DNA from: Bacillota bacterium
Lineage (GTDB): Bacteria; Bacillota; Desulfotomaculia; Desulfotomaculales; Nap2-2B
Direction: 5' to 3'
Assembly (NCBI GenBank): GCA_040755975.1
Contig: JBFLZY010000006.1
Location: forward strand, 10,078 to 74,077
DNA: 64,000 nt
How positions within the stretch are numbered: position 1 is the stretch's first letter; each line of letters opens with the position of its first letter. The notes under the pieces were generated by a model. It ran no database searches. It was not told where the DNA came from and saw only the letters and a program-made list of their open reading frames with translations. The translations under genes and the position numbers were made by a program. Of this stretch, positions 19,433 through 34,682 are shown piece after piece.

Positions 19433-19567
19433 TCAACTAAAACACCTGATTACCAGAACCCCCGTTAAGAACAGGATGGTGCTCAAGCCCAGGGTATCGA
19501 CCACCAGGGAAACAGTCTCTACCCACTCAGGGGTTTTCTCCTCGGGATAATAACGTTTGTTCGCCAT
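19433..19567 (-). CDS. Small (44-aa) single-TM membrane peptide, last gene of the first TauE module
   Basis: ATG 19567 preceded by GAGGTG; MANKRYYPEEKTPEWVETVSLVVDTLGLSTILFLTGVLVIRCFS; below the ORF-track size cutoff. Confidence 0.35.
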   Translation of the reverse strand: MANKRYYPEEKTPEWVETVSLVVDTLGLSTILFLTGVLVIRCFS

Positions 19568-19732
19568 TCCCAACACCTCGCTTTCAATTAAAAGAAGAGG
19601 GAGAGGGGGAGAGGGGGTCTTCTTCGGGGAATGACGCCCTCTCCACAGGGGAAGGGTCGTTTATTGACCAGCGCCTCTCCAAAAAGCATGAAAAGGGAGC
19701 AGGTTAAAAGCTTCGTAACTTTGGCAAACGCC

Positions 19733-19811
19733 CAAAACAAAAGGCCGGTTGCCTTGAACCAAGGCTAACCGGCCTATCGTTGTTCGATTTGGCCTAAACT
19801 CTTTTTACTTT
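19733..19811 (-). ncRNA. Candidate short transcript / attenuator (copy 1): conserved hairpin overlapping an intrinsic terminator
   Basis: Minus-strand RNA reads GGCCAAAUCGAACAACGAUAGGCC followed by AGGCCGGUU..AACCGGCCU UUUGUUUU; 25 of 26 nt of the core are identical to the copy at 28816-28841. Confidence 0.5.
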
Positions 19812-19817
19812 GTTAAA

Positions 19818-19846
19818 ATTATAACAAAGCAATCGGGTGCTGTCAA
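19818..19846 (-). promoter_or_regulatory. Consensus sigma-70-type promoter (TTGACA-17-TATAAT) driving the short transcript
   Basis: Minus strand has TTGACA (19846-19841), a 17-nt spacer and TATAAT (19823-19818). Confidence 0.7.
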
Positions 19847-19903
19847 GAAATTTATTAGCAAAAGTTTTGGCAAATGTTCAGAAAAACCGTAAAAGATCCT
19901 TCT

Positions 19904-20617
19904 TCAGGCTTCTGCTTTTTCCGCGGGCTTGCTGGCCGTGATCCCCAGCCCCTCAAAGATCAACATGATGGCAAAGCCGTACCAGATGGTGTAAACAACG
20001 TAAAAAACGAGGGAACCAACCGAAATTCCCGCCACTTCCCGGAACCGGGCCGGCGGAATGCCGTCATAATTGTACGCCGGCTCCAAAGCCTTCTTGCTTA
20101 CGTTTTCAACAAACACCGCCTCCGCCGGTTTGTTTTCCTGCAGGTAGTGACCTTTTAACTGCTTGAAGGCCGCCCACCAGTAATAAACGGCTTCCTTGCC
20201 GGAAAAACCGTATTGATTTGGGGCGGGCGTTTCCCCGCTCTGAAACAAGGCATCGGCGTCAGCCAGCGCGCGCCGGGCCACCAGGCCCAGGTCGCCCGTG
20301 ACCCGCAGGCTTTCTCCGCTGACCGCCGCTCCCGCGCCCGCGGCAAGGAAGAGAGTTTTCATTTTTTCCAGCTCTTCGGCACTTTTCACCTGGAAAGTAA
20401 CTTCCATTTTAGTTCCGGTAAATCGATCTGCTTTCCCGGCCAGGTCCGGAATAAAGTAGGACGATCCCTTAGCCAAAGAGTTAAAGATGCCGTCGACCAG
20501 ATGCAACCCGGTCGCACCTTGAAAAACCGGGCTGAGGATTACGGCCAGGGTCGCTCCGAAGCAAATCAGCAGCACCAGGCCGGCGATAAATGCCCTCCGG
20601 TTAATGATTACAGGCAT
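19904..20617 (-). CDS. Membrane-anchored hypothetical protein (N- and C-terminal TM segments), partner of the TauE-like permease
   Basis: 237-aa ORF 20 nt downstream of the 441-aa permease gene; no family recognised. Confidence 0.55.
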   Translation of the reverse strand: MPVIINRRAFIAGLVLLICFGATLAVILSPVFQGATGLHLVDGIFNSLAKGSSYFIPDLAGKADRFTGTKMEVTFQVKSAEELEKMKTLFLAAGAGAAVSGESLRVTGDLGLVARRALADADALFQSGETPAPNQYGFSGKEAVYYWWAAFKQLKGHYLQENKPAEAVFVENVSKKALEPAYNYDGIPPARFREVAGISVGSLVFYVVYTIWYGFAIMLIFEGLGITASKPAEKAEA

Positions 20618-20637
20618 CTGTACGCACCCCCTTCATC

Positions 20638-21963
20638 CTAACGAGAAGACTCCAAGGCCTGTTCCGTCCGCCCGGACGTTGCCGGCACACCGGCCAGAGC
20701 AGCGTGTTCCGCCCTGATTTTTCCCACGCTGCGCAGGAAAGAGGCCAGGACCCAGAAAGCAAACCCGCTGACCAAAGCAAAAAAGATGACCGTTCCGATG
20801 GTGCTCAGCAGTTTTCCGGCGGCCGGGGCCAGGCTAAGGTAACCGGCGCTGGAAAGCTTTTCCGGCAGAGCACAGGCCCGGTTGACAAAGCCGGCAAAAA
20901 TGGCCAGAGCGTAAAAACCGCGGATGACCGCCCCCTTGACCACCTTCGTCACCATGGCGCCGATTTGCACGCCGACCAGGGAGCCCAGCAAGAGGCCCAT
21001 GGTCAGGGAGTAAAAGACGAACCCGCTGATGGCGTATTGAATGGACGCATACCCGGCCGTAAAGATGATCTGCAAAATATCGGTGCCGACGGTCGTAAAC
21101 GTGGATACGCCAAGGCCGTAGACAAACATCGGGAAGGTCAGAAAACCTCCGCCGACACCCATAATGGCGGCGATAAAACCGACTATGAATCCGCACCCGA
21201 TAACCGGATAAACCGGCAACTGCCGGCCGCCCGGGACAATGTCCTGGTCGAATTTAACGTAGGGGGGAATCTTCAAGGACTGTAACGTCCGGGCAATCCT
21301 GGTCGTGGTTTGCACCTGCGCTTTTTGGGAAGCCTCGGCCCGGCGCAGGCTAAGATAATCGTAAAGGGCATAAGCCCCCAGAATGCCGAGCATGAAAACA
21401 TAGACTCCACTGATAAAGGCGTCGCTGAGCGCGGGGCTCTTTTCGTAAATGGACTTGTTCAAGCCCGTTCCCAACGTCACCCCAAGGGTTGAACCAACGA
21501 CAAACCAGACCGCCAGCCAGACGTTCACGTTGCCCAGCTTCCGGTGCAGGGCGGTGCCCATGATCGCTTTGGCAAAAATATGAAACTGGTCGGTCCCCAC
21601 CGTCATAATTCCCCTTACCCCGATACTCATCAACGCCGGGGTAATCACGAAACCCCCGCCGGCGCCGATACACCCGGTAATTAAACCCGCAACCAACCCC
21701 ACAAAAAGCGAACCCAAAAACATTTCCGTGGTAATAAAGGACGGCGCGTAAGCTTTGCCGCCGCCAATCAATTCGGTCGCCAAAGCTATTTCTACGCCCA
21801 TAAAAATGATTACCGGCAAAAGGGCGGCCAGCAATATTTTCCAGCGCCTGGCGAGGATAAACCTGCTGTTTTCAATTTCCCAGCGGGCGTAGGCGCTTTG
21901 CAGGTTCAGCAGCGTATTGTTGAACTGCCTTCCTTTGTGGCAAAGTTTAGACCACAAATGCAT
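20638..21963 (-). CDS. TauE/SafE (DUF81) family anion permease, long form
   Basis: 441 aa; duplicated GxGGG-type motifs (CIGAGGGFVITPAL and IMGVGGGFLTFPMF) with TVGTD motifs typical of TauE/SafE; ATG 21963 after GGGGGAG. Confidence 0.8.
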   Translation of the reverse strand: MHLWSKLCHKGRQFNNTLLNLQSAYARWEIENSRFILARRWKILLAALLPVIIFMGVEIALATELIGGGKAYAPSFITTEMFLGSLFVGLVAGLITGCIGAGGGFVITPALMSIGVRGIMTVGTDQFHIFAKAIMGTALHRKLGNVNVWLAVWFVVGSTLGVTLGTGLNKSIYEKSPALSDAFISGVYVFMLGILGAYALYDYLSLRRAEASQKAQVQTTTRIARTLQSLKIPPYVKFDQDIVPGGRQLPVYPVIGCGFIVGFIAAIMGVGGGFLTFPMFVYGLGVSTFTTVGTDILQIIFTAGYASIQYAISGFVFYSLTMGLLLGSLVGVQIGAMVTKVVKGAVIRGFYALAIFAGFVNRACALPEKLSSAGYLSLAPAAGKLLSTIGTVIFFALVSGFAFWVLASFLRSVGKIRAEHAALAGVPATSGRTEQALESSR

Positions 21964-22512
21964 CCACTTCTCCCCCTTTCAAAATCGAAAAGCCTGATGA
22001 AGCCGCCTGGTGATCTTTTCCATATTTCTTTTTCTAAATCAACCTGCTCCCTTTGCATGTTTTTTGAAGAAACCGGTCTCCAACAACCCTTTTTCTGCCA
22101 AAAATGTTCTTGATCTATCCGGATGGTCAACACCTCCTTCTTTTTTGCTAAATCTCCTGCCCATGTGAACTTATTCACTTCACTTGCCGGATAATACTCC
22201 CCGCACACAATCCGGCACCGGGGTCCTGCTTGAAATTTAACAGCCAATTTCCTCCGGACCGGAAACCCTCCCTCATCTGCGTAGCAGAGTAATCGCGACA
22301 ACTCCTTAATTGCCGATTGTGATATAATTAACTTTCTTTATGAGAAATTTATGTTTTTGTCACTACACCTGTCAAACCTGAATATTTCGATCTATTGGCT
22401 TACCAACTTAAATATTATTAACATTCCTGTTCTTGTTCTATTTACTCTTCATCAGCCAGTTTATCTCGTTTTTTTGAGTTATCGTGAAATCAAAAAATTC
22501 ACGGCGAAGGGA

Positions 22513-22563
22513 TTGACAGGAAGAGACTCTTCACGTATAATTGTGATTAGTTTAACAATCACA
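22513..22563 (+). promoter_or_regulatory. Consensus promoter (TTGACA-17-TATAAT) immediately followed by a 22-bp palindromic operator
   Basis: TTGACA 22513-22518, TATAAT 22536-22541, then TGTGATTAGTTTAACAATCACA at 22542-22563. Confidence 0.65.
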
Positions 22564-22880
22564 TTCCAAACAACGTAAAACCCTTAATTGCCTGAAAAGA
22601 AAGGGGGAAAATGAGCGGAGGGTTGACCAGCGGCAATGCAAAGGGGGAAGGTTGAAAACGCGATGAGATGTTGACGATATTGTTATAAAAAGGTTCGTGA
22701 AAACAATCACCGGGAGAAGAAAATGTGAAAAGTATTGTGATTAATGGCACATATTAAACTGCCGGCAACGCTCTTTAGCCCCTTGATCGTCCCAAAATAA
22801 AAAAAGGAAAGGAGTGAACACCGGCCGCCGGGGGCTGTCCGGCCGCTTAGTCGAGGGCCGGTCAAAAAGGCCGGAGGAAA

Positions 22881-23201
22881 ATGAAAACGGTAAGAGAATT
22901 CGTGGTGCCGGTAAACGATTACGACCCCAACCTTGAAAAAGAAAAGCGTTACGTTCCGGGCAGGGAGCGCGTTTTTCGCCCCGGGTTCTATCCTTACGTT
23001 CAGGAAGTCGTCCGTTTCAACCTGCTTTCCGTAAATGCCGGCGATCCCGTGGAGAAAGCCCTGCAGATCATGTTCCGGGAAAAGGTAAAGACTTTACCGG
23101 TGCTGGAAAAGGGCAAAATCGTCGGCGTGGTCAGGTCCCGTGATTTAATTGCCCTGTACGGGGAACTGTTCGAAGATAAGCGGATGAGCTTTTCGTCTTG
23201 A
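22881..23201 (+). CDS. Small CBS-domain protein
   Basis: 106 aa; KVKTLPVLEKGKIVGVVRSRDLI is a CBS-type beta-alpha-beta segment; RBS GGAGGAAA. Confidence 0.55.
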   Translation: MKTVREFVVPVNDYDPNLEKEKRYVPGRERVFRPGFYPYVQEVVRFNLLSVNAGDPVEKALQIMFREKVKTLPVLEKGKIVGVVRSRDLIALYGELFEDKRMSFSS

Positions 23202-23235
23202 TTATCAGTTGGTGCCTTGAATCCTCTCCCGTGAA

Positions 23236-23283
23236 ACGCTCATTTTAAGAACAAGCAGGTTCCCTAAAATGAGCGTCTTTTTA
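23236..23283 (+). terminator. Intrinsic terminator after the CBS gene
   Basis: 12-bp stem ACGCTCATTTTA / TAAAATGAGCGT followed by CTTTTTA. Confidence 0.75.
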
Positions 23284-23352
23284 TTTCATCGTTTTTACTG
23301 ATTAAGCAGCGGCGATAGGTAAACCACCTTTATTTACAAAGGGGTTGAAGTT

Positions 23353-24885
23353 ATGCCTCCTTTTACCCAAATGCCGGGTTTTAAACGCCAATTTTTACTA
23401 ATTGTGTTTATCCTTTTAATCGTCCCGGTGCTGGTGATGCTTTACGACGTCTATTTCGCCTCCAAAACCGACGACATTCTGGTCGTCAACCTCGAAAAAA
23501 AGCTTACCGGCATTGTCAATCAGACGGGCGAAAAAATCACCGCCCGGCTCGCACTGGAACCGGCCGGAAAACAGGCCGCTTCCCTGGAAGAGGCATTCAA
23601 TCAGGCGGCCGCTCCCCTGGCGGAAGCCAACCCGGGCGTCCGGCTGTGTATCTACCTGATCGAAAAAGACAAGATCGTCATCCACGGCTATCTTCACGAA
23701 TTCGGCAAGCGCCTGCCGGAAGAAAAATACGAACGGGAACGGCGCATTTACAACGAAGCGTTAAAAGGAATTTCCGCCGTGATGAAAAGCGGGGAACATA
23801 TCACCAGACTGGGCCGGACATGGGATGACCAGTTCTTGGAATACCTGGTCCCGGTGCGCGTTAACGGCCAGATCACCGCGGTGCTGTGGGCGGAGGAAAT
23901 GATGCACCCGCTTTTTGCCCGCAGCACGAAGCTGCGCCTGGTAATCCGCTACGTCACCCTCGTGGTCTTCAGCTTTGGCGTCATTGCTTCCCTGGTCGCC
24001 ATTGCCTCTTTGGTCCGGCAGGTAAGGGTAATCAAAAACGGCCTCTTGCAACTGGAGAACAATTTTTACTACCGGCTCCCGGCGCTGCCGGGCGAGATGG
24101 GCCAGATTACCGGGGCGATCAACACCTTGGCCGCCGGTCTTGCCGAAAGAGAACAAATGATTGAACAATTGCGGCGTTCGGAAAACCTGATCGCCCTCGG
24201 CAAACTGGTCACCAACATCGCCCACGAGCTACGCAACCCGGTTAGTATTATCCAGGCCGTCAGCGAAGTGCTGGCGTCCCGGTTGAAGAGTTCTCCGGAA
24301 TTAAAAGGGTATGCGGAATACGTAACAAAAATTCAGGAGCAAATCGAAAGACACAACCGGCTGGTGGGAGAACTGCTGGACTTTGGGCGACCAGACCCCG
24401 GCCTCATCGCGCCCCTGAGCTTAAATGAACTGATTTCCGTAATTCTAGGGGACTGCGCTTTGTTGCTCCAGCAAAAAAAGATCGCCCTCGAATTCGCTCC
24501 CAGCGCGGAACCGCTGCTCATAAAGGGCAACCAGGAAAAACTCAAGCAGGTACTGATCAACCTCCTGCTTAACGCCGTCCAGGCCATGCCCAGGGGGGGA
24601 AACCTGATCGTCCGGACGGAAGCAGTCAACCACACGGCCCGGGTGATGATCCGCGACACCGGGGTAGGCATCTCCAAAGAAGACCTGCCGCAAATTTTCA
24701 CCCCTTTCTATACCAAAAAAGCCGGCGGGGGCGGTCTGGGCCTGGCGATCAGCCGGCGCATCGTCCAGATTCACGGGGGGTCGATCAGCGCGGAAAGCGA
24801 ACCCGGGGCGGGTACCACTTTCATCCTCAGCTTTCCGCGTCTTCAAACGGACGAAGAAAACATAGCGTTATCCCCAGATACTTAG
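23353..24885 (+). CDS. Sensor histidine kinase (2 TM, extracytoplasmic sensor domain, HAMP, HisKA, HATPase_c), paralog 1
   Basis: H-box NIAHELRNPVS, N-box LLLNAVQAMP, G-boxes RDTGVGI and GGGGLGLAISRRIV; same architecture as the ORF at 35104-36669. Confidence 0.9.
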   Translation: MPPFTQMPGFKRQFLLIVFILLIVPVLVMLYDVYFASKTDDILVVNLEKKLTGIVNQTGEKITARLALEPAGKQAASLEEAFNQAAAPLAEANPGVRLCIYLIEKDKIVIHGYLHEFGKRLPEEKYERERRIYNEALKGISAVMKSGEHITRLGRTWDDQFLEYLVPVRVNGQITAVLWAEEMMHPLFARSTKLRLVIRYVTLVVFSFGVIASLVAIASLVRQVRVIKNGLLQLENNFYYRLPALPGEMGQITGAINTLAAGLAEREQMIEQLRRSENLIALGKLVTNIAHELRNPVSIIQAVSEVLASRLKSSPELKGYAEYVTKIQEQIERHNRLVGELLDFGRPDPGLIAPLSLNELISVILGDCALLLQQKKIALEFAPSAEPLLIKGNQEKLKQVLINLLLNAVQAMPRGGNLIVRTEAVNHTARVMIRDTGVGISKEDLPQIFTPFYTKKAGGGGLGLAISRRIVQIHGGSISAESEPGAGTTFILSFPRLQTDEENIALSPDT

Positions 24886-24916
24886 CCTCATCACATTTCA
24901 AATTTGATCGGCAGTA

Positions 24917-24968
24917 TTGACATCATTATGAAATTAATGTTACACTAAAATTGTGATAACTATCACAA
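24917..24968 (+). promoter_or_regulatory. Promoter (TTGACA-18-TACACT) followed by the perfect CRP/FNR-type palindrome TTGTGATAACTATCACAA
   Basis: TTGACA 24917-24922, TACACT 24941-24946, palindrome 24951-24968, 22 nt upstream of the receiver gene start. Confidence 0.65.
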
Positions 24969-24990
24969 ATCTCTTTAGGAGGGGATAATT

Positions 24991-25371
24991 GTGGCCAGGG
25001 TACTTGTTATTGACGATGAAGAGGGGATGTGCTGGGCGCTGGAAAAAGCCCTGGAGGAAGAAGGCCACCGGGTTTTTACCGCCACCTGCGGGCTGGCCGG
25101 TCTGGCTGTTTTCAAGGCGCAAGAAATCGACCTGGTCCTTTGCGACATCAAGATGCCCGACATCAGCGGGCTGGAAGTTTTGGAGCAAATCCGCAAGAAA
25201 AAACCGGACGTTCCGGTGGTGATCATGACCGGGTACAGCACTTTGTCCGTTGCTCTGGAAGCAATTAAAAAAGGGGCCGTCAGCTACCTCACCAAACCTT
25301 TTCACATCGGTCAGCTAAAGGAATTGATGCAGAAAATGATTAATCAGCAGCCTTGCCGATCAGTCCATTAA
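24991..25371 (+). CDS. Stand-alone response-regulator receiver domain (NtrC-type receiver without AAA+ or HTH domains)
   Basis: VLVIDDE...DLVLCDIKMPDISGLEVL...YLTKPF; aligns with residues 1-120 of the NtrC-type protein at 36644 but stops after 126 aa. Confidence 0.9.
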   Translation: MARVLVIDDEEGMCWALEKALEEEGHRVFTATCGLAGLAVFKAQEIDLVLCDIKMPDISGLEVLEQIRKKKPDVPVVIMTGYSTLSVALEAIKKGAVSYLTKPFHIGQLKELMQKMINQQPCRSVH

Positions 25372-25682
25372 ATTTGCCGTCGAAAAAAACACCAGCCGCC
25401 CGTTTTGATCGGGAAAAGCTTACGGAAAGCGTCCGGGAGAAAATCGCCATTGGTAAATCTATTCGTGAGTTCCACGAAAGAGAACAGCTGGTCAAGGCAA
25501 TCGAGTTGCTCAAAAAATTTCTTTACCGGGATGAAAAAGGTGTAGTTTTTTGCCGGGCAAATTTCTTTGCGGAACCCCCGCATACCGAAGACCGCCTGGA
25601 CGAAGCTATCCATACTTTGTTGCGAGGGAAAGTCAACATCCTGCGGTGCTGGGAAAAAAAGCCCACCCTACCGGCGCAATAG
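25353..25682 (+). CDS. Hypothetical protein (weakly supported ORF)
   Basis: 109-aa ORF with only a TTG start and no clear RBS; overlaps the 3' end of the receiver gene. Confidence 0.3.
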   Translation: MPISPLNLPSKKTPAARFDREKLTESVREKIAIGKSIREFHEREQLVKAIELLKKFLYRDEKGVVFCRANFFAEPPHTEDRLDEAIHTLLRGKVNILRCWEKKPTLPAQ

Positions 25683-25758
25683 CTCTTCCTTGCCCGGGGA
25701 AAAATCGGGAGCATTTAAACCTGTTACGCAACCGCAGTTAAATTCAACTGGAAAGTTT

Positions 25759-25914
25759 TCAGGGAATAATCGGGCCAAACAGGTAGGCTAAATAAACAAC
25801 CCACAGAGATGAAACAAGAAAGATCCCAATAACATGCACAACATCATTTAAAACGTCGCCGCTGTCGATTTCTTCTTCGTAACCCCTCCAGTTCCGATCC
25901 CACATTCTCATCAT
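25759..25914 (-). CDS. Small (51-aa) membrane peptide candidate
   Basis: ATG 25914 preceded by GAGGGGTAAGGGG; MMRMWDRNWRGYEEEIDSGDVLNDVVHVIGIFLVSSLWVVYLAYLFGPIIP. Confidence 0.3.
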   Translation of the reverse strand: MMRMWDRNWRGYEEEIDSGDVLNDVVHVIGIFLVSSLWVVYLAYLFGPIIP

Positions 25915-28122: not shown

Positions 28123-28182
28123 TCCTCCTCTCGTTCTTTAGTTTTCTTTTTCCGGCGCTTCCCGGAACTGTAAATCCCCTGG

Positions 28183-28290
28183 CTAACCTGCCTTGCCGGC
28201 AACCTGCCCCGTGACGAGGAAATAAATCCAGGTTACAAAAGAACCGCAGCAGAACAAGATGATAAAAATTTGGATCAGTCTTTTGCCCAT
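28183..28290 (-). CDS. Small (35-aa) membrane peptide
   Basis: ATG 28290 lies 8 nt after GGAAAGGAGGT; MGKRLIQIFIILFCCGSFVTWIYFLVTGQVAGKAG; replaces the out-of-frame 65-aa track ORF. Confidence 0.45.
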   Translation of the reverse strand: MGKRLIQIFIILFCCGSFVTWIYFLVTGQVAGKAG

Positions 28291-28407
28291 TACGCGACAC
28301 CTCCTTTCCTTCTCTGTTTTTAACTGCCCGGAGGATGTCTTGCTCCGGGGGTTAAGTCAGGTTATAAGATGGTGACATAATTCACATATCCCCTGAAAAT
28401 AAAACTG

Positions 28408-28620
28408 CTAACGAATAACTTGCTTTGGTTTGTTTTTTCCAGGATAAAGGGTAACCGGCTGTTCTTCCAGCTTCACCGTCTTGATGGCTTCGTAAATCAA
28501 CACCGGCTGTCCGTTTTCCACGCGCACTCTGACTTCACCCCAACCTAATTCCCGCATGAAAAGAATGAGCTGTTTTTCCCTGTTCGTAAGGTTCTGGACG
28601 GCTCCTTTTTCATCGGCCAT
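28408..28620 (-). CDS. YezD-family (DUF2292) small protein
   Basis: 70 aa; LTNREKQLILFMRELGWGEVRVRVENGQPVLIYEAIKTVKL matches the YezD family pattern (my recollection). Confidence 0.65.
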   Translation of the reverse strand: MADEKGAVQNLTNREKQLILFMRELGWGEVRVRVENGQPVLIYEAIKTVKLEEQPVTLYPGKNKPKQVIR

Positions 28621-28642
28621 TACCTGCTCCCCTCCCCGATAA

Positions 28643-28699
28643 CGTGATTGTTTTCACTATCACATTTTAATTCTATTTTTTACTCGCCCAGCCTGTCAA
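28643..28699 (-). promoter_or_regulatory. Promoter (TTGACA-18-TAGAAT) followed by the 22-bp operator TGTGATAGTGAAAACAATCACG
   Basis: Minus strand has -35 at 28699-28694, -10 at 28675-28670 and the operator at 28664-28643; half-site AACAATCAC is shared with 22555-22563 and 22702-22710. Confidence 0.6.
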
Positions 28700-28775
28700 G
28701 AAAAACCGACCGATTTTTTGACCGATCTAAATTACCGGGCAACGTCAGCTTAAACTGTCCGAAGGGGCGGGGATG

Positions 28776-28889
28776 AAAAAAGGCCGGAAGGCTCTAACCG
28801 GGGCTAGAGACTGCCGGCCTATCGTTGTTCGATTCGGCCCTGCCTGTGAAGTTTGATCTAAAAATAACAAATTCCTGCTGCGCTGTCAA
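28776..28889 (-). ncRNA. Copy 2 of the promoter + conserved hairpin + terminator unit
   Basis: TTGACA at 28889-28884 with a weak -10 (TATTTT), GGCCGAAUCGAACAACGAUAGGCC, then the terminator AGGCCGG...CCGGCCU UUUUU. Confidence 0.45.
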
Positions 28890-28932
28890 CCCCTTTTTTG
28901 CATCTGAAAATTACGAAAATAGGCCTTCCGGA

Positions 28933-29193
28933 TTAACCTGTCCTTTTCTTTAAAAATTCAAGGATTATACCGGCCGTTTCCGGGTCAAAATCACTCTGAT
29001 AAAACCTCAGGAAGAGCGCCTGGCGCAACTCGGCCGGGGTGAGCCGGGGATTTTCCGCCCGGAGAGAAGCCAGCGCCAGGCGGCGGGCGGTATCAAACAT
29101 CGAGCAGCCCATCTTAAGACGTTTTTCGCCGGGCCGTCTCATGATCATCGCCCGGAACCGCCTGGCTGCCTCGGGGTTAGTATCGCCGGTCAT
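28933..29193 (-). CDS. Small helical hypothetical protein, partner of the nucleotidyltransferase remnant
   Basis: 86-aa ORF; its ATG overlaps the stop of the upstream fragment (ATGA). Confidence 0.5.
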   Translation of the reverse strand: MTGDTNPEAARRFRAMIMRRPGEKRLKMGCSMFDTARRLALASLRAENPRLTPAELRQALFLRFYQSDFDPETAGIILEFLKKRTG

Positions 29194-29391
29194 TTGGCTG
29201 CCTCCCTGTAAAGATCTTCAACCGCCAGCTCTTTTTTTATATCTACCGTCCGCAGTTCGACCACGATATCGATATCCCTGGTCATGCGGGGGACGTCATA
29301 AAAGTAGAATTGACCCGGTTGGCATGTACGGGATTTGCGCCTTGTTCAGCCGCCCGGTGACTATCTTTAATACTTCCAATTCATCGCTCAA
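29190..29391 (-). pseudogene. Frameshifted, truncated nucleotidyltransferase-like gene remnant
   Basis: Frame A reads LSDELEVLKIVTGRLNKAQIPYMPTGSILLL-stop; frame A+1 continues FYDVPRMTRDIDIVVELRTVDIKKELAVEDLYREAAK; together this resembles the N-terminal part of a MNT-type nucleotidyltransferase. Confidence 0.4.
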
Positions 29392-29666
29392 TTCAACTTC
29401 CCCTTTCCCCCAATTATAACAAAACTGATCAATTATGAACTCTTGAATTTATAAAAAGCACCCTGTTTTCTGGTGATGCCGGACCGGGACCGGAACCAAA
29501 CCAGGCCGGACCGAATAGCTTGAATATTTTTTATTGTGGAACTTAATATGTGACATATTGCACAAGTGTGTCTTAGGTGTTATAATGCCAGTTAAGTAAG
29601 TGAGAGACAAAAATAGTGACCAGACATGTGACAGATATCACAATTAACTAGAACAACAAATTCAAG

Positions 29667-31238
29667 GTGGAAAAGAACAAAAAACTGCGAAAATGTAATG
29701 ACAAGGAGGGGGGTTGGCCGGTGTTTTTCCGAAAAATCACCACCCGCAGCAACGACAAGGAATACACGTACGTCAAGCTCATTGAAAACTACCGAAAGGG
29801 AAATAAGATCAAGCAAAGGGTCATCGCCAACCTGGGAAACATCGAAGAACTGGACCCGGACCGGGTGCGCAACCTGATCGCCAGCCTGGCGAAAGTTTGC
29901 GGCGTGGAACCTCCCGGCAAACCAAAATTGAAAATAAAAAGAGTCTTGCGTTACGGCGACGCCCTGCTGATCCATAAAATCTGGGAACGGCTGGGCCTCA
30001 CCGGCGCGGCGGGCGCCTTCCCCGGCGCGACGCCGGACCTGGCCCTGGCGATAGAACTGCTGGTCATTGCCGAACTCCTCCCCCTCCCCGCGGGAGCGTT
30101 TCAGGAATGGCGCCGCCACCTCTATTTGCCCGCTCCGGAACAGGCGAATCCCCCGCCCCGGGAAGAAGTCCTGAACTATCTGGCCGAAAACGGGCGGCGC
30201 CTCCAGGAACGCATCTTTCACCGGTTGCAGGAATGGGGAAAAGTAACCTCGCCCATCTACCTTTTCGCCGTGAAGAGCCTGGTGGAAAACATCCCCCCGC
30301 AGCCGGCCCACTTTCTCAACCGGCGCGGCGAACGCCGTTTCTTCGACCTGGATTTATTTACGACGCCCGCGGGAATCCCGGCCGGGTACGCCGCAACGGC
30401 TCGAAACACTGCAGACGGGCAAAACCTGACCAAAAGGATGGCCCAGGCCGGCGAACGGTTTAAAAATTACCGGGTTATCCTGGTCGGCAATTTTCCCGCC
30501 CTTCCCGAAGAAAATCCGCCTGGTCTTGCCAGGTACGCCCGGGAATACATCACCGGTCTTTCCCTTTCCTCCCCCAAAGCCGGGGAGACCAGCCGGAAAG
30601 TCTTGCCGGCAGACCTTTTCCCCGCAGATCTCATCCCGGCAGCTCTTTTGGAGAACTTCCACCGGCTTGCCGACGACCTCTGGTACCGGGAAATCAAATC
30701 GGAACAAACGCGCTACCTGTTATGTTCGAATCCTTTTCAAAATCGCAATTTCATTATTCAAACAAATACCGAAGATCTCCCCGCCTCCGAAATTATCCGG
30801 ATCTATAACGATTTCGCCGCTGTTCAAGCCCGCTACCGGGTCATCGGATGCCCCGCCCGGCCGGATTGCACCGCCATGAGCCTGCCGGGGCGGATCTTTA
30901 TTTCCTGGCTGGCCCACCTGGTCGAGAGGCTCCTCGACTATATTTTCCAGGAACAGGGAATTAATATAAATGCGCTTGCCGCCCTGCAAACTTTGGAGCC
31001 GGTTAAGATAGTCATCAACGAAATGGGGGGTGAGATCGGCAGTTCGGTAATGGCGATGGATAAGGCGCAGAAAAAAATTCTATCCGCCCTGGAAGCGGGA
31101 GTGGCGCCTTCAGAAGCACCTGACGGGTTTCGTCCGACTTCCTGTCCCGCCGGGCAACACCGGCGACACCTTAGAAAACAGAGGTTGGGGATTAGACTCC
31201 CAGGCCATTTTCGCAGCACAAACAGAAAACGAAAATGA
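29667..31238 (+). CDS. IS1634/IS4-family transposase-like protein, probably degenerate
   Basis: N-terminus FFRKITTRSNDKEYTYVKLIENYRKGNKIKQRVIANLG is typical of IS1634 transposases. The expected second catalytic Asp region reads ILVGNFPALPEEN. The last ~15 codons run into the hairpin repeat. Confidence 0.55.
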   Translation: MEKNKKLRKCNDKEGGWPVFFRKITTRSNDKEYTYVKLIENYRKGNKIKQRVIANLGNIEELDPDRVRNLIASLAKVCGVEPPGKPKLKIKRVLRYGDALLIHKIWERLGLTGAAGAFPGATPDLALAIELLVIAELLPLPAGAFQEWRRHLYLPAPEQANPPPREEVLNYLAENGRRLQERIFHRLQEWGKVTSPIYLFAVKSLVENIPPQPAHFLNRRGERRFFDLDLFTTPAGIPAGYAATARNTADGQNLTKRMAQAGERFKNYRVILVGNFPALPEENPPGLARYAREYITGLSLSSPKAGETSRKVLPADLFPADLIPAALLENFHRLADDLWYREIKSEQTRYLLCSNPFQNRNFIIQTNTEDLPASEIIRIYNDFAAVQARYRVIGCPARPDCTAMSLPGRIFISWLAHLVERLLDYIFQEQGININALAALQTLEPVKIVINEMGGEIGSSVMAMDKAQKKILSALEAGVAPSEAPDGFRPTSCPAGQHRRHLRKQRLGIRLPGHFRSTNRKRK

Positions 31239-31628: not shown

Positions 31629-32621
31629 ATGATCGATCCCCTGACCACTGCGCCGGCAATCTTTTTTATCGGTCTTTACGCGGGTATTTTAAGGGTGTGT
31701 TACGGAACCGCCGCCCAGTTGCTGGCCGTTCCCCTGCTGAACATCTTCGGCCTTCCGACCGTTTTTGCCGCCGGCACCGCCATCGCCGGGAGCTTTTGCC
31801 AGACCGCCGCAACCCTCGTCCAGAAAGGCTCCCTTTCTTACGCGCACCGGCGGCTGGGGTTGGCCCTGGGTATCTTCGGTACCATCGGTATGTTTCTTGG
31901 TCATGCGCTGCTCGCCGGAATATCCGCTGTCAACCAGAATATTTTTACCGCCACCTGGACTGTTCTTCTTTTTGCTGCGGGAGCGGCAACCCTGGTGTAT
32001 TCCCTGGCCAAAGAAAAAAAATGCGGCCCCGGTCAAAATCCCCCTCCGTCCAATTGGCCGTTTTTATTCCGGCCCGGCCCGGGCAACACCCGGTTTATTG
32101 AATTTTTGTCTCTCCCGGCGGTTTTCCTGGTCGGGCTGGGAATCGGCTTCGCCACAGGGTTCTGGGGCCTGGGGGCGGGCCTGCCGGGGATCATTCTGCT
32201 GACCGGGGTTTTGCACGCACCCCCGCAGGTTGCCGCGGCCACCGACCTGGTTGCCTCCTCGATCATCAGTGCGGCGGCCCTGCTGAGCTACCTTCTCACC
32301 GGCCATTTGCATGCCTGGGCCCTGCTCCCCTTTGTCTGCGGACTGTTTGCCGGAAACTGGGCCGGCCATCTGGCGCCCCCGGAAATTAAGGCCGGAATGT
32401 TTCGTCCCGCCTTCGCCGGCGTATTGTTCCTGGGTGCGGCGGCGGCGGCCTTAAAAGTGGCCGGCCACGCCAAAATGGCGGGGCTCTTCTTGATGAGCGG
32501 CATGATTTTGCTCTGTGCGGCCCTCTTAGCCGGCCACCTGCTCATTAACTTGCTGCTGCAGCGCTCCGGCGAAAAAGAAACCGGCGGTAAGCAATCAGAG
32601 CATTCGCCAATTCACCCGTAA
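31629..32621 (+). CDS. TauE/SafE (DUF81) family anion permease
   Basis: 330-aa polytopic protein with AAGTA / AAATD pseudo-repeat motifs; RBS AAAGGGGTG. Confidence 0.75.
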   Translation: MIDPLTTAPAIFFIGLYAGILRVCYGTAAQLLAVPLLNIFGLPTVFAAGTAIAGSFCQTAATLVQKGSLSYAHRRLGLALGIFGTIGMFLGHALLAGISAVNQNIFTATWTVLLFAAGAATLVYSLAKEKKCGPGQNPPPSNWPFLFRPGPGNTRFIEFLSLPAVFLVGLGIGFATGFWGLGAGLPGIILLTGVLHAPPQVAAATDLVASSIISAAALLSYLLTGHLHAWALLPFVCGLFAGNWAGHLAPPEIKAGMFRPAFAGVLFLGAAAAALKVAGHAKMAGLFLMSGMILLCAALLAGHLLINLLLQRSGEKETGGKQSEHSPIHP

Positions 32622-32641
32622 AAGCAACCTGTTTATTTCGC

Positions 32642-33289
32642 TCAAACGACCCCCAGTCTGTTTAAAGCTTTTTTGGTCACCAGGATGAAGCTGGCCAGCT
32701 TTTTGGACGTCAGTTCCGTTTCCCAGCGCTCCGCCAAACGAAAAGGCAAAAATACTTTGAATCTATACTTGCCGGTAGCTTCTACTTTCGGCAGTTCCCG
32801 CTCCAAGGCCTCCCCTAATTCAAATTCTATTTCTTTTTTCTGGCCCAGGAGCGGCAAAAAAACCTGTTTTTTCCGGCCGTCCATAACCAGGTCCAAAACC
32901 AGCAGTTCGCGGCCCTGGTAGGTTCCTTTACGCGGCCTGGTTTTGCCGATGCGGTAATATACGTTTTTATTTTCCAAAACTTTAATGCACCGCCAGGACC
33001 CTTTCAGGCCCAGCCACTGGTCGGAGGAAGGATAGAACATTTTAATCCCCCAGCCGCGCAGTATTTCCTGGGTGCGGATAAGCACTTCATCCAGAAACTC
33101 GTCGAAATCGCCTGACCCGGTCGCTGCAGAATCTTCTTCGCTTTTTACTTTTTCTTCCTGAAGCCAGCGCTCGAACCAGTTGAGCACCTTTTTATAACTG
33201 CTTTGCTGGTACTCCTGGAGAAATGCTTCCTTCTGTCTTGTAAAATGCTTAACAAATTCTTGATTAGTCATTCCCTTCTCACTCCCCAC
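32642..33289 (-). CDS. Hypothetical soluble protein, last gene of the TauE-DUF1634 operon
   Basis: 215-aa ORF 21 nt downstream of the DUF1634 gene; no family recognised; the start may be ATG 33271. Confidence 0.5.
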   Translation of the reverse strand: MGSEKGMTNQEFVKHFTRQKEAFLQEYQQSSYKKVLNWFERWLQEEKVKSEEDSAATGSGDFDEFLDEVLIRTQEILRGWGIKMFYPSSDQWLGLKGSWRCIKVLENKNVYYRIGKTRPRKGTYQGRELLVLDLVMDGRKKQVFLPLLGQKKEIEFELGEALERELPKVEATGKYRFKVFLPFRLAERWETELTSKKLASFILVTKKALNRLGVV

Positions 33290-33310
33290 ACCGCAAGGAG
33301 GCCGCCTTGC

Positions 33311-33727
33311 CTAATGACCAACCCGAAGAACCCCGCTGGCCGCGAGCAGCAGAATAAGTATTTCCAGCCCGGCAATTGCTGCGTAGGCCATATCCTTGCT
33401 CTTGATATAAAAGGGGATTAAAACCAGGTAGCCTGCTATAGTCAGGAAAGCCAGAAAAGCAATGCCGATAAAATTTAGAAAATCGCCGTACATGAGCATC
33501 CCCACCCATCCCCAGCCGACGGGCAGGTTCAACTGTTCGTTAAAATCATGTACGTTCATCCCCCAGTAATTGGGAAGCATTGCGGAAGGTACATAGGGAG
33601 AAATTATCCCGCTGGCGTACAACAAAAACAGGATCCCGAGAATCAGGATTCCTCCCCAGGCCCCGTAAAACAGAATATTGGCGTATCTGATTTGTTCCGG
33701 CGCAATTTGCAGGTTCTGTTTCTCCAT
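33311..33727 (-). CDS. DUF1634-like small membrane protein
   Basis: 138 aa with 3-4 TM segments, immediately downstream of a DUF81 permease; this is the usual DUF81-DUF1634 pairing. Confidence 0.6.
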   Translation of the reverse strand: MEKQNLQIAPEQIRYANILFYGAWGGILILGILFLLYASGIISPYVPSAMLPNYWGMNVHDFNEQLNLPVGWGWVGMLMYGDFLNFIGIAFLAFLTIAGYLVLIPFYIKSKDMAYAAIAGLEILILLLAASGVLRVGH

Positions 33728-33734
33728 AGCATTT

Positions 33735-34682
33735 TCACCCCCAAATTCCCAGGCCTTTTAACAGTGCCCGCACCCCGGCGAAGAAAAGCATACCGATGAC
33801 GATGTACCGGACAATCGATGGTTTCGTGACGGCCAGGATTTTTACCCCCAAAAACGAGCCCAGCATGATCCCGATGATGGAAGGAACGGCGATTAAAGGG
33901 ATGATGCAGCCCTGGTTCAAATAAACCCAGGCCGCGGAAGTGTCCGTGATGGAAAGCAAAAACTTGCTGGTGCCCACGGCCACTTTCAACGGCGCCCCCA
34001 TCAGCAGGTTTAAAACCGGCACGTTCGCCCACCCAGCACCCAGACCGAACATTCCGGCAAGAACGCCGATGAAAACGAAAAGGAACATTCCCGAAGGAGT
34101 CCGCCACACCTGCCAGTTCACTATTTTCCCGGTTGATTCTTCCCGGTAAGAACCTTCTATTTTCAACATCCTGGCCAGGTTATCCGGAGCCTTGACTTCC
34201 GGATACTCCGTGTTTTTAGAAAAAATAAACAAAACGGCGATAAAAATTATGGTCAGGCCTAGAGCGGTCTGGACGATCCACGTCGGCGCCGCCAGACCCA
34301 CAAAAGCCCCGGCAATACTACACGTGGAAGCAATCAGAGCCAAAGGCAGGGTCAAGCGTAAGTTGGCCAGATTTTTCCTGAGCAGGCCCGGGCCTGCCGC
34401 CAGGGCGCCCGAGAGGGCCACCAGCAAACCCGCCCCCCTTACGAAGTCCAGGTGAAATGGAAAAAAGCTGCTCACTAAAGGGACGTATAACACTCCCCCG
34501 CCCACTCCGGCCAAAACGGCCAGGATGCCCAAGATGATCGTGGCGATAAATAGCGCCAGCGGCCATACCCACCACGGTGGCCCGAGGTGAGCGCTTGTTG
34601 CCACTGCCGCTGCGGAGCCCGTCGGCACCGTCGGACTGACGGTCGAAGCCAGGATCCACATGGAGGCTATTTTTTCCAGCAT
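33735..34682 (-). CDS. TauE/SafE (DUF81) family anion permease
   Basis: 315 aa; LAGVGGGVLYVPL and MFGLGAGWANVPVL repeats with AVGTS. Confidence 0.8.
   Translation of the reverse strand: MLEKIASMWILASTVSPTVPTGSAAAVATSAHLGPPWWVWPLALFIATIILGILAVLAGVGGGVLYVPLVSSFFPFHLDFVRGAGLLVALSGALAAGPGLLRKNLANLRLTLPLALIASTCSIAGAFVGLAAPTWIVQTALGLTIIFIAVLFIFSKNTEYPEVKAPDNLARMLKIEGSYREESTGKIVNWQVWRTPSGMFLFVFIGVLAGMFGLGAGWANVPVLNLLMGAPLKVAVGTSKFLLSITDTSAAWVYLNQGCIIPLIAVPSIIGIMLGSFLGVKILAVTKPSIVRYIVIGMLFFAGVRALLKGLGIWG

What the first reader, a model, noticed from the sequence alone, without database searches (positions are those of the whole stretch)
19433..34682. Four paralogous TauE/SafE (DUF81) permease modules clustered in 15 kb, each with different small partners
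There are four modules. Module 1: 441-aa TauE + 237-aa bitopic protein + 44-aa peptide (21963-19433, minus). Module 2: YezD/DUF2292 + 35-aa peptide + 67-aa membrane protein + 396-aa TauE (28620-26696, minus). Module 3: 330-aa TauE alone (31629-32621). Module 4: 315-aa TauE + DUF1634 + 215-aa soluble protein (34682-32642, minus). The modules are interleaved with two paralogous sensor kinases, a sigma-54 activator, a CBS protein and shared operator motifs. The two long permeases share a central insertion not seen in the short ones. TauE/SafE proteins are associated with sulfite/sulfonate-type anion transport. YezD genes, as I recall, often sit near sulfur-assimilation transporters, so a dedicated and separately regulated sulfur-oxyanion trafficking island is plausible. 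None of the substrates or partner functions can be read from the sequence.
Basis: partly seen in the sequence, partly recalled or inferred. Interest (0 to 1): 0.6.

Follow-up and report, generated by a model that had tools for sequence, protein, structure and literature searches.

The report
Sulfate-reducer anion permease island with partner subunits
A sulfate-reducing bacterium carries a conserved 18-kb island of four different TauE-type anion permeases, each with its own small membrane partners and regulators. They are good but untested candidates for the poorly known sulfate, sulfite or thiosulfate carriers of sulfate reducers.

Summary
Four ORFs at the stated coordinates match Pfam TauE (PF01925) at 92-143 bits. 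All the small neighbouring ORFs have Shine-Dalgarno sites and dN/dS of 0.04-0.23.

The four permeases are old paralogs, only 21-32% identical. The whole island is syntenic in three same-genus genomes.

The host is a Desulfovirgula-like Desulfotomaculia bacterium with sat, aprA and dsrAB.

Module 1 pairs a 10-TM TauE with a 237-aa bitopic protein. That partner has no Pfam family, and its confident model has no PDB fold match. The pair is adjacent in 79 of 80 loci from several phyla. In a class sample it occurs in 61 of 97 dsrA-positive genomes and 0 of 42 dsrA-negative ones.

The DUF1634 and YezD labels hold only at family level. The 67-aa protein resembles DVU0150, whose neighbour DVU0149 is a TSUP.

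Module 4 has a conserved sigma-54 promoter and upstream activator site. Most other promoters share a TGTGA-N6-TCACA operator: 9 sites against 0.6 expected, and 9 of only 30 in the genome.

The "central insertion" claim is weak. The "IS1634" ORF looks domesticated.

Substrates remain inferred; sulfur oxyanions are most likely. This scan has flagged similar TSUP modules in at least 14 other genomes.

The parts
20638..21963 (-). Module 1 permease, TauE441. It has a TSUP core plus an extra N-terminal TM and an extra C-terminal TM.
   Evidence: PF01925 at 126 bits. Hydropathy. Orthologs are 50-67% identical across Bacillota, Thermodesulfobacteriota, Nitrospirota and one archaeal MAG.
19904..20617 (-). 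Module 1 partner, p237. It is bitopic (TM at both ends) with a domain of about 165 aa that is probably extracytoplasmic.
   Evidence: No Pfam or NCBIfam hit. At least 420 homologs, all named hypothetical. AlphaFold model at pLDDT 87.3 with no PDB fold match, best E 0.4. It lies directly after an M1-type TauE in 79 of 80 loci.
19433..19576 (-). Small membrane ORF of 44 aa from the ATG at 19567 (47 aa from the GTG). It is genus-specific and lies behind its own promoter and terminator-like unit.
   Evidence: Conserved in G002, G001 and G005 at 59-96% identity. dN/dS 0.12-0.23. SD site present. Found in only 2 of 80 wider loci.
22881..23201 (+). Single-CBS protein of 106 aa, the first gene of the CBS-kinase-receiver unit.
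   Evidence: PF00571, E 1.3e-10. Operator sites lie 145-339 nt upstream.
23353..24885 (+). Sensor histidine kinase HK510, with a sensor domain bracketed by two TM helices.
   Evidence: HisKA plus HATPase_c. 42% identical to HK521.
24991..25371 (+). Receiver-only response regulator, RR126.
   Evidence: PF00072 at 110 bits with no output domain. 45% identical to the receiver of EBP449. A perfect operator lies 39 nt upstream. Lone receivers also precede M1-type modules in Thermodesulfobacteriota.
26171..26515 (+). Cys-rich two-TM protein, p114, with CPxC and CCxxC motifs. Its likely start is the ATG at 26210. It is divergent from module 2.
   Evidence: It sits next to the M2-type TauE in G002, G001, G005, G025, G019 and G040. 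dN/dS 0.14. SD site at the ATG at 26210.
26696..27886 (-). Module 2 permease, TauE396. It has a TSUP core plus a C-terminal extension with one more TM.
   Evidence: PF01925 at 143 bits. Orthologs are 55-95% identical in 7 genomes of the order.
27919..28122 (-). Module 2 single-TM protein, p67, which is DVU0150-like.
   Evidence: NF040783 at 25.6 bits, below its cut-off of 70. 6 of 7 orthologs hit the same model. The DLGxYKKEYEEE motif is conserved. dN/dS 0.11-0.18.
28183..28290 (-). Module 2 membrane peptide of 35 aa, p35.
   Evidence: 100%, 89% and 55% identical in G002, G001 and G025. dN/dS 0.04. SD site AGGAGG.
28408..28620 (-). Soluble 70-aa protein, p70, which is YezD/DUF2292-like. It has its own promoter and operator.
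   Evidence: 87 homologs in Desulfotomaculia with an invariant GQPV...E..T..L core. 22 of 30 homologs hit PF10055, best E 7.8e-5, but p70 itself does not. It also occurs next to kinase-receiver pairs and M1-type TauE genes in other genomes.
29667..31238 (+). IS1634-like ORF that is probably domesticated rather than an active transposase.
   Evidence: NF033559 at 81 bits, below its cut-off of 100. No Pfam DDE domain in 4 orthologs. No flanking terminal inverted repeats. It holds the same position in G002 (81% identity) and G001 (48% identity), with dN/dS 0.23-0.35. Two operator sites lie in its promoter.
31629..32621 (+). Module 3 permease, TauE330, with no partner gene and one extra C-terminal TM.
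   Evidence: PF01925 at 92 bits. Syntenic in G002 (78% identity) and G001 (61% identity), with dN/dS 0.23.
33735..34682 (-). Module 4 permease, TauE315.
   Evidence: PF01925 at 128 bits. dN/dS 0.04.
33311..33727 (-). Module 4 membrane partner, p138, which is DUF1634-like.
   Evidence: PF07843 at only 12.8 bits, below its cut-off of 27.5. 239 homologs, many named DUF1634 domain-containing by NCBI at 50-55% identity. Present in 54 of 139 class genomes.
32642..33289 (-). Module 4 soluble protein, p215. Its likely start is the ATG at 33271.
   Evidence: No family hit. Conserved in G002, G001 and G031 at 48-84% identity. dN/dS 0.07. The structure model was too poor to use, pLDDT 47.6.
34903..34918 (-). 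Sigma-54 promoter (-24/-12), TGGCACGGTTTGTGCT, upstream of module 4.
   Evidence: It is the only match in the window. It is conserved in G002 and G001. rpoN is present in the genome.
35030..35090 (.). Upstream activator region with the invariant palindrome TGTCTGATAACAGACA and one TGTGA..TCACA-type site.
   Evidence: Alignment of three genomes. Sequence read directly.
35104..36669 (+). Sensor kinase HK521, a paralog of HK510.
   Evidence: HisKA, HATPase_c and a weak HAMP match. Comparison with HK510.
36644..37993 (+). Sigma-54 enhancer-binding response regulator, EBP449.
   Evidence: Response_reg, Sigma54_activat (256 bits) and HTH_8. Orthologs sit next to TauE genes in several families.
22164..29642 (.). 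Span holding eight of the nine operator sites (TGTGA-N6-TCACA, at most 1 mismatch), at 22164, 22542, 22736, 24952, 26117, 28371, 29549 and 29627. The ninth is at 35031.
   Evidence: 9 sites against 0.59 expected, and 0 of 100 shuffles reach 9. All are intergenic. They make up 9 of the 30 sites in the 3.24-Mb genome. Their positions are conserved in G002, G001 and G005 while the spacers vary.

Best explanation
This is a conserved chromosomal island of a Desulfovirgula-like dissimilatory sulfate reducer. It encodes four anciently diverged TSUP (TauE/SafE) secondary anion carriers.

Three of the four work as permease-plus-small-membrane-partner units:
- M1: TauE441 with p237.
- M2: p35 and p67 with TauE396. 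The p114 gene lies beside them on the opposite strand, and a YezD-like p70 gene lies just upstream behind its own promoter.
- M4: TauE315 with a DUF1634-like p138 and the soluble p215.

The most likely job is regulated movement of inorganic sulfur oxyanions (sulfate, sulfite, thiosulfate) across the membrane for dissimilatory sulfur metabolism. Different carriers would be switched on under different conditions.

M4 is switched on by the extracytoplasmic sensor kinase HK521 through the sigma-54 activator EBP449, at a conserved -24/-12 promoter with an upstream activator site. M1, M2, the CBS-HK510-RR126 unit and the transposase-derived gene have sigma-70-type promoters carrying a shared TGTGA-N6-TCACA operator. 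A Rex- or Crp/Fnr-type protein encoded elsewhere in the genome probably binds it. The lone receiver RR126 and the CBS protein may act on the carriers directly.

Shown: gene reality, family membership of the permeases, obligate pairing, promoter and operator conservation, and restriction to dsrA-bearing genomes. Inferred: substrates, direction of transport, the physical permease-partner complexes, and the identity of the operator-binding protein.
For: - Family and genes: PF01925 matches. Purifying selection on every ORF. SD sites.
- Synteny: the whole island is syntenic in G002, G001 and G005. TauE clusters with kinase and activator pairs recur across the order.
- Host metabolism: sat, aprA and dsrA are present.
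- Pairing: the M1 pair is adjacent in 79 of 80 loci across phyla.
- Phyletic pattern: p237 occurs in 61 of 97 dsrA-positive and 0 of 42 dsrA-negative class genomes. p138 occurs in 52 of 97 and 2 of 42. Sister genera in the same family lack dsrA, lack p237 and have few or no TauE matches.
- Regulation: sigma-54 promoter and activator site conserved. Activator and rpoN present. Operator statistics and positional conservation.
- Literature: TSUPs are abundant in sulfate reducers, and one conserved clade is proposed as a sulfate carrier (PMC5840216). DvH TSUP operons are sigma-54 dependent (PMC4641369). DVU0149 is a TSUP next to DVU0150, and that cluster is up-regulated in sulfate-free syntrophic growth (PMC4265775). 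The DVU0251 TauE cluster affects nitrate sensitivity and was proposed as a leaky thiosulfate carrier (PMC4001038). A TauE and its co-occurring membrane protein rise under thiosulfate disproportionation (PMC13490349).
Against: - No substrate can be read from the sequence, and no TSUP has a solved structure.
- The genome also has two PiT-type and one DASS-type carrier that could import sulfate, so the TSUPs are not the only candidates.
- 36 of 97 dsrA-positive genomes lack p237, so M1 is not essential for sulfate reduction.
- The island is not next to sat, apr or dsr; it lies beside rpsB-tsf-pyrH-frr.
- Characterised TSUPs carry varied substrates, including sulfonates and sulfite.
- Related genomes are not independent, so the Fisher P value of 3e-14 overstates the association.
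Confidence: 0.55

Rival explanations
1. The permeases carry something other than inorganic sulfur oxyanions. Candidates are organosulfonates (taurine, isethionate, sulfoacetate, toluenesulfonate), other anions (nitrate, selenite) or metal ions. On this view the link to sulfate reducers reflects ecology rather than the dsr pathway.
For: Named TSUP members are linked to sulfonates and sulfite, and the MamO TauE domain gave a weak match to TauE396. Loss of the DVU0251 cluster changes nitrate sensitivity (PMC4001038). The authors of PMC5840216 state that function cannot be predicted.
Against: p237 is strictly restricted to dsrA-bearing genomes. No sulfonate-degrading or other catabolic genes lie in or beside the island. 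Four different subfamilies all travel with sulfate reducers.
Confidence: 0.2
2. The modules are efflux or detoxification valves that export sulfite, sulfide-derived species or sulfate, as the name TauE suggests, rather than uptake systems.
For: The Pfam family name is sulfite exporter. PMC13490349 proposes export during disproportionation. Operators placed just after the -10 boxes imply derepression under an internal signal such as redox state, if Rex is the binding protein.
Against: HK510 and HK521 have extracytoplasmic sensor domains, which fits sensing an external substrate. By the positive-inside rule p237 places its large domain outside the cell, like a tethered binding or gating domain. 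DVU0145-0150 are induced when sulfate is absent.
Confidence: 0.15
3. The cluster is cargo of a recent mobile element (IS1634), or a chance pile-up of unrelated paralogs with no functional unity.
For: GC is lower (0.475-0.52) than in the flanking housekeeping genes (0.55-0.6). A transposase-like ORF sits in the middle.
Against: The same gene order holds in three same-genus genomes with dS above 1. The transposase-like ORF has no terminal repeats and no detectable DDE domain, and it is under purifying selection. A shared operator found almost nowhere else in the genome ties the units together.
Confidence: 0.03

Closest known systems
TSUP / TauE-SafE permeases (TC 2.A.102, Pfam PF01925), including the TSUP-type CysZ of Corynebacterium glutamicum and TauE of Cupriavidus necator as cited in PMC5840216
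   Same: All four permeases match PF01925 above its cut-off. Their hydropathy fits two four-helix halves joined by a central loop.
   Different: M1 and M2 carry extra terminal TM helices. Each module has dedicated small partners. No substrate is known. None of the four was compared directly with a characterised member.
Sigma-54-dependent TSUP operons of Desulfovibrio vulgaris Hildenborough, DVU0150-DVU0146 and DVU2957-DVU2964 (Kazakov 2015, PMC4641369; TSUP list in the Marietou 2018 supplement)
   Same: A TSUP lies next to a small DVU0150-family membrane protein, as p67 does with TauE396. There is sigma-54 and activator control, as for M4. The host is a sulfate reducer.
   Different: p67 scores 25.6 bits against a cut-off of 70, so it is only a distant relative. 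Here M2 has a sigma-70-type promoter with an operator rather than a sigma-54 promoter. The activator here is a two-component response regulator, whereas DVU0151 and DVU2956 are one-component.
TSUP 'clade B' of sulfate reducers (Adeg_0175, Dret_2118, DVU2958; Marietou 2018, PMC5840216), proposed as a possible primary sulfate carrier
   Same: M1-type TauE is likewise highly conserved (50-67% identity) across sulfate reducers of several phyla and is restricted to dsrA-bearing genomes.
   Different: Identity with clade B was not tested, because no reference sequence was at hand. The obligate p237 partner is not mentioned in the text passages and supplement entries of that paper that I searched.
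Desulfovibrio 'nitrate cluster' DVU0251-DVU0245 (Korte 2014, PMC4001038)
   Same: A TauE permease of about 320 aa is followed by a conserved hypothetical protein, with a histidine kinase and a lone receiver nearby. A thiosulfate-related role was proposed.
   Different: That cluster has a PtxB-like binding protein and a PEP-synthase-like gene, which are absent here. Orthology to M3 or M4 was not tested.
DASS-type sulfate-uptake gene cluster of Desulfosarcina variabilis 3be13 (Sci Adv 2025, PMC11887813)
   Same: Anion carriers are embedded among many two-component systems and CBS-domain proteins in a sulfate reducer, with a proposed two-level control of uptake.
   Different: The carriers there are DASS and SulP types, not TSUP. 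Searches of that paper's text for TauE and TSUP found nothing.

Membership tests
TSUP / TauE-SafE (PF01925) | Match to the Pfam model above its gathering score | tested here: met
   126, 143, 92 and 128 bits against a cut-off of 32.6.
TSUP / TauE-SafE (PF01925) | Eight-TM core built from two four-TM halves joined by a loop | tested here: inconclusive
   A Kyte-Doolittle scan shows hydrophobic segments on both sides of a central loop of 27-46 aa, plus extra terminal TMs. No dedicated topology predictor or structure was available.
TSUP / TauE-SafE (PF01925) | Transport of sulfite, sulfonates or sulfate | not testable with these tools
   This needs transport assays.
DUF1634 (PF07843), for p138 | Match above the gathering score | tested here: not met
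   12.8 bits against 27.5, E 0.14. Homologs at 50-55% identity are named DUF1634 by NCBI.
DUF1634 (PF07843), for p138 | Small multi-TM protein encoded directly after a TauE gene | tested here: met
   Its start codon lies 8 nt after the TauE315 stop. Three hydrophobic segments.
YezD / DUF2292 (PF10055), for p70 | Match to the Pfam model | tested here: inconclusive
   p70 itself gives no hit at E up to 10. 22 of 30 close homologs hit weakly, best E 7.8e-5. Some homologs are named DUF2292 by NCBI or UniRef.
DVU0150 family (NF040783), for p67 | Match above the curated cut-off | tested here: not met
   25.6 bits against 70, covering model positions 45-93 of 99. 6 of 7 orthologs hit the same model.
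DVU0150 family (NF040783), for p67 | Encoded next to a TSUP permease | tested here: met
   p67 lies directly upstream of TauE396. DVU0149 is listed as a TSUP in the PMC5840216 supplement.
IS1634-family transposase (NF033559) | Match above the cut-off, a DDE catalytic domain and terminal inverted repeats | tested here: not met
   81 bits against 100, with only the N-terminal 288 of 483 model positions matched. No Pfam DDE domain in 4 orthologs. No flanking inverted repeats.
Sigma-54 / NtrC-type two-component control (module 4) | GG-N10-GC -24/-12 promoter, an activator with AAA+ and HTH_8 domains, rpoN, and an upstream activator site | tested here: met
   Promoter TGGCACGGTTTGTGCT is conserved in 3 genomes along with the palindrome TGTCTGATAACAGACA. 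Activator domains. rpoN at 466 bits.
Rex or Crp/Fnr operator | TTGTGA-N6-TCACAA palindromes at promoters, with the regulator gene present | tested here: inconclusive
   The motif is enriched and positionally conserved. A rex gene lies on C40. There are six Crp-type HTH hits, the best of them next to a TauE gene on C11. Which protein binds was not determined.
Marietou TSUP clade B (DVU2958 / Adeg_0175) | Sequence clustering with the clade B reference proteins | not tested
Only the shared phyletic pattern was seen.

The most novel reading that the evidence does not exclude
TauE441 with p237 is a dedicated two-subunit sulfur-oxyanion carrier specific to dissimilatory sulfate or sulfite reducers, possibly the unidentified sulfate importer of lineages that lack SulP. 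On this reading p237 is an obligate new-fold subunit whose outward-facing domain captures or gates the substrate, and lone receivers and CBS proteins tune the carrier after translation. A second, bolder element: the transposase-derived protein, which keeps only the N-terminal DNA-binding part of an IS1634 transposase and sits behind two operator sites, is the island's own operator-binding regulator.
Probability: 0.2. Interest if true: 0.8.

Novelty: new variant of a known kind. Interest (0 to 1): 0.5.

Why it matters
How sulfate, sulfite and thiosulfate cross the membrane of sulfate reducers is still poorly resolved, especially in thermophilic Firmicutes that lack SulP carriers. TSUP proteins are abundant there but uncharacterised (PMC5840216).

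This island gives concrete, separable test objects. The strongest is a permease-partner pair that is adjacent in 79 of 80 loci and was found only in dsrA-bearing genomes in the class sample. The partner has no Pfam family, and its confident model found no PDB match. The island also provides two defined regulatory inputs: a sigma-54 two-component switch, and an operator that is almost specific to the island.

If the substrates are confirmed, these genes would improve metabolic models and marker-gene sets for the sulfur cycle.

Tried and rejected
- Structure of p215: the AlphaFold model from a 4-sequence alignment reached only pLDDT 47.6, so no fold search was run on it. A PDB sequence search gave only spurious designed TIM barrels.
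- Fold search for p237: nothing below E 0.4.
- PDB sequence search with the TauE alignment: no hits.
- Rfam scan of the island: no family at E up to 1.
- Literature search for YezD and DUF2292: nothing useful. A search for TauE together with DUF1634 found no papers.
- Sigma-54 promoters for M1, M2 and M3: none found.
- Regulator hunt: I scanned the genome for the operator and ran Pfam on the neighbours of sites outside the island. These were a Usp protein, a ferredoxin, an ArsR-type protein, a LuxR-type response regulator and a 246-aa protein with a weak wHTH match. No convincing autoregulated regulator emerged. Only 2-mismatch sites lie upstream of rex and sat.
- Active-IS reading of 29667-31238: rejected.
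- Recent tandem duplication of the permeases: rejected, since they are only 21-32% identical.

Full report
**Observation**

Four ORFs at the coordinates given match Pfam TauE (PF01925) far above its 32.6-bit cut-off:
- 20638-21963(-), 441 aa, 126 bits
- 26696-27886(-), 396 aa, 143 bits
- 31629-32621(+), 330 aa, 92 bits
- 33735-34682(-), 315 aa, 128 bits

The assembly holding the window is 3.24 Mb in 220 contigs and 92% complete. It has nine TauE loci, and four of them lie in this stretch.

The four proteins are only 21-32% identical to each other. They are old subfamilies, not recent duplicates.

The Pfam-covered cores are 273, 273, 261 and 262 residues long. The central loops are about 46, 42, 27 and 36 residues. 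Most of the extra length in the long proteins is terminal: an extra N-terminal TM and C-terminal TM in M1, and a C-terminal extension with one TM in M2.

**Are the small ORFs genes?**

Every partner ORF has a Shine-Dalgarno site 5-10 nt before its ATG. Every one is conserved in same-genus genomes. All show dN/dS of 0.04-0.23, the same range as the permeases.

Likely start corrections are ATG 26210 for p114 and ATG 33271 for p215.

The 44/47-aa ORF at 19433-19576 is found only within the genus and in just 2 of 80 wider loci. It lies behind a separate promoter and terminator-like unit. Its membership in module 1 is therefore uncertain.

**Host and setting**

Close relatives are deposited as "Armatimonadota", "Bacillota" and "Desulfovirgula sp." MAGs. 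Desulfovirgula thermocuniculi carries an M1 pair at 48% identity.

The genome has sat, aprA and dsrA with dsrB beside it, and it has rpoN. It has no SulP carrier, one DASS-like carrier and two PiT-type carriers.

The island follows the housekeeping block ispG-rseP-dxr-cdsA-uppS-frr-pyrH-tsf-rpsB. Its GC content is lower than that of this flank.

The whole gene order is kept in G002, G001 and G005, with synonymous divergence above 1 against G001. The order runs from EBP449 and HK521 through M4, M3, the transposase-like ORF, M2, p114, RR126 and HK510 to M1. Other families of the order also cluster several TauE genes with kinase-activator pairs.

**Module 1**

p237 has no Pfam or NCBIfam match. 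It has at least 420 homologs, all named hypothetical.

Its alignment shows a TM helix at each end and strongly conserved motifs. The AlphaFold model is confident, with pLDDT 87.3, but finds nothing in the PDB; the best Foldseek E-value is 0.4. Arg-Arg before TM1 and Lys residues after TM2 suggest that the middle domain faces outward. This is an inference from the positive-inside rule.

A scan of one genome per species found at least 575 loci. The best 80 come from Desulfotomaculia, Thermodesulfobacteriota, Nitrospirota/Thermodesulfovibrionales and one archaeal MAG. In 79 of these 80 loci an M1-type TauE at 50-67% identity lies directly upstream on the same strand. The one remaining locus has no room upstream. 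In Thermodesulfobacteriota the pair usually follows a kinase and one to three lone receivers.

In a sample of 139 genomes of the class, p237 is present in 61, and all 61 have dsrA. In total 97 genomes have dsrA, and none of the 42 without it has p237. Fisher P is 3e-14, but this is overstated because related genomes are not independent.

There is a contrast within the window's own family. Only this genus has dsrA, p237 and many TauE genes. The two sister genera have neither dsrA nor p237, and only 0-3 weak TauE matches.

This pattern resembles the conserved TSUP "clade B" (Adeg_0175, Dret_2118, DVU2958) that Marietou et al. proposed as a possible sulfate carrier (PMC5840216). I could not compare the sequences directly.

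**Module 2**

The p35-p67-TauE396 unit, with the divergent Cys-rich p114, recurs in G002, G001, G025, G019, G005 and G040.

p67 and five of its six orthologs tested (6 of 7 sequences) weakly match the NCBIfam DVU0150 family, at 25.6 bits against a cut-off of 70. In Desulfovibrio vulgaris the neighbouring gene DVU0149 is listed as a TSUP (supplement of PMC5840216). The operon DVU0150-0146 is sigma-54 dependent (PMC4641369). That cluster is up-regulated in sulfate-free syntrophic growth (PMC4265775).

p70 itself does not hit DUF2292. However, 22 of 30 homologs do so weakly, with best E 7.8e-5, and some are named DUF2292 by their sources. The YezD label therefore holds at family level only.

p70 has its own promoter and operator. 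In other genomes it sits beside kinase-receiver pairs or M1-type permeases. It may be a regulatory component rather than a transporter subunit.

**Modules 3 and 4**

M3 is a lone permease, syntenic in G002 and G001.

In M4, p138 scores below the DUF1634 cut-off. Its 239 homologs include many that NCBI names DUF1634, at 50-55% identity, in Desulfohalobiaceae, Thermodesulforhabdus, Dissulfurispira and Humidesulfovibrio.

p138 is present in 54 of the 139 class genomes. Of these, 52 have dsrA. The other two are 85-88% complete genomes from genera that otherwise carry dsrA.

A 2026 proteomics paper reports a TauE and its co-occurring transmembrane protein as more abundant under thiosulfate disproportionation (PMC13490349).

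p215 has no family match and could not be modelled.

**Regulation**

HK510 and HK521 are 42% identical over 479 residues, including the sensor part. RR126 is a bare receiver, 45% identical to the receiver of EBP449. EBP449 is a complete sigma-54 activator.

The only -24/-12 element in the window is TGGCACGGTTTGTGCT at 34918-34903(-), upstream of M4. It is conserved in G002 and G001 together with an invariant palindrome, TGTCTGATAACAGACA.

The palindrome TGTGA-N6-TCACA occurs 9 times with at most one mismatch, against 0.59 expected. All 9 sites are intergenic and lie before M1, CBS106, RR126, p114, p35, the transposase-like ORF and HK521. The sites before p70 carry two mismatches.

Genome-wide there are only 30 such sites. 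Nine of them, including both perfect ones, are in this island, which is the only cluster. A tenth lies about 70 nt upstream of a fifth TauE gene on contig C1.

The site positions are conserved in G002, G001 and G005 while the spacers differ. A site also lies about 170-460 nt upstream of M1-type permeases in other Desulfotomaculia genera.

The binding protein is unknown. A rex gene exists on C40. Six Crp-type HTH matches exist, and the best is beside a TauE gene on C11. Two weak sites precede sat.

**Transposase-like ORF**

The ORF at 29667-31238 matches the IS1634 model only in its N-terminal part and below the cut-off. No Pfam DDE domain is detected in four orthologs, and there are no terminal inverted repeats.

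It keeps its position in G002 (81% identity) and G001 (48% identity) under purifying selection. Relatives or N-terminal fragments lie in TauE islands of other genera. It is best read as a domesticated gene. A role as a DNA-binding regulator is speculation.

**Interpretation**

The island is a regulated set of TSUP anion carriers with dedicated partner subunits, tied to dissimilatory sulfur metabolism. Sulfur oxyanions are the most likely substrates, and uptake is somewhat more likely than export. The reasons for favouring uptake are the outward-facing sensor domains, the probable outward-facing p237 domain, and the induction of the Desulfovibrio counterpart when sulfate is absent.

None of this is biochemically shown. 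The genome also has PiT- and DASS-type alternatives, and 36 of the 97 dsrA-bearing genomes lack p237.

**Comparison and novelty**

Sigma-54-controlled TSUP operons in sulfate reducers are already described (PMC4641369), as is the abundance of TSUPs in these organisms (PMC5840216). Earlier notes of this scan flagged related modules in at least 14 genomes, including what looks like the same CBS-TauE-bitopic partner unit.

New here are four things:
- the count of M1 pairing (79 of 80 loci);
- the co-occurrence of p237 with dsrA;
- the finding that the p237 model matches no PDB structure;
- the nearly island-specific operator and the conserved M4 promoter architecture.

I rate this a new variant of a known kind, of moderate interest.

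Noticed in passing
window 29667-31238 (+); L011:12545-14032; L013:12707-14221; L017:648-2075: An IS1634-like ORF without a detectable DDE domain or terminal repeats is kept in synteny across the genus. Relatives, or N-terminal-only fragments, sit in TauE islands of other genera. Its promoter carries two of the island's operator sites. It may be a domesticated transposase.
   Followed up: partly
G000:C11:46859-48614: The genome's best Crp/Fnr-type HTH match (239-aa frame) lies directly beside another TauE gene (413-aa frame). That protein is a candidate binder of the TGTGA-N6-TCACA operator.
   Followed up: partly
G000:C28:4139-5625: The dsrA match in the own genome is split. Model positions 1-80 and 39-401 fall in separate frames or pieces. 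This could be a frameshift, an assembly error or an insertion.
   Followed up: no
window 40188-41649 (+): An Agr-like pair lies just beyond the island: an AgrB-family protein (206 aa) preceded by a GHKL/SpoOB-type kinase (283 aa). This suggests peptide quorum sensing.
   Followed up: no
window 41864-44226 (-): A Ski2-like helicase appears split into two adjacent ORFs, one with DEAD/ResIII (253 aa) and one with Helicase_C plus DSHCT (516 aa). It could be a frameshift or a true split gene.
   Followed up: no
G000:C36:17431 (L106:1132): An operator-like site, AGTGATAATAATCACA, lies 35 nt upstream of a universal stress protein gene. It is one of the few intergenic sites outside the island.
   Followed up: partly
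G000:C22:723-792: Two operator-like sites with 2 mismatches each lie about 400 nt upstream of sat (C22:1209-2351). This would fit a Rex-type regulator shared with the sulfate-activation genes.
   Followed up: partly
window 19733-19846 and 28776-28889 (-): Consensus sigma-70 promoters are followed by hairpin and terminator-like units, between p237 and the 44-aa ORF and upstream of module 2. No Rfam family matches either.
   Followed up: partly
relatives G036, G017, G029, G100, G098: The dsrA matches in several relatives are reported with one in-frame TAA. Probably the match runs past a shorter protein's stop codon, but I did not check.
   Followed up: no
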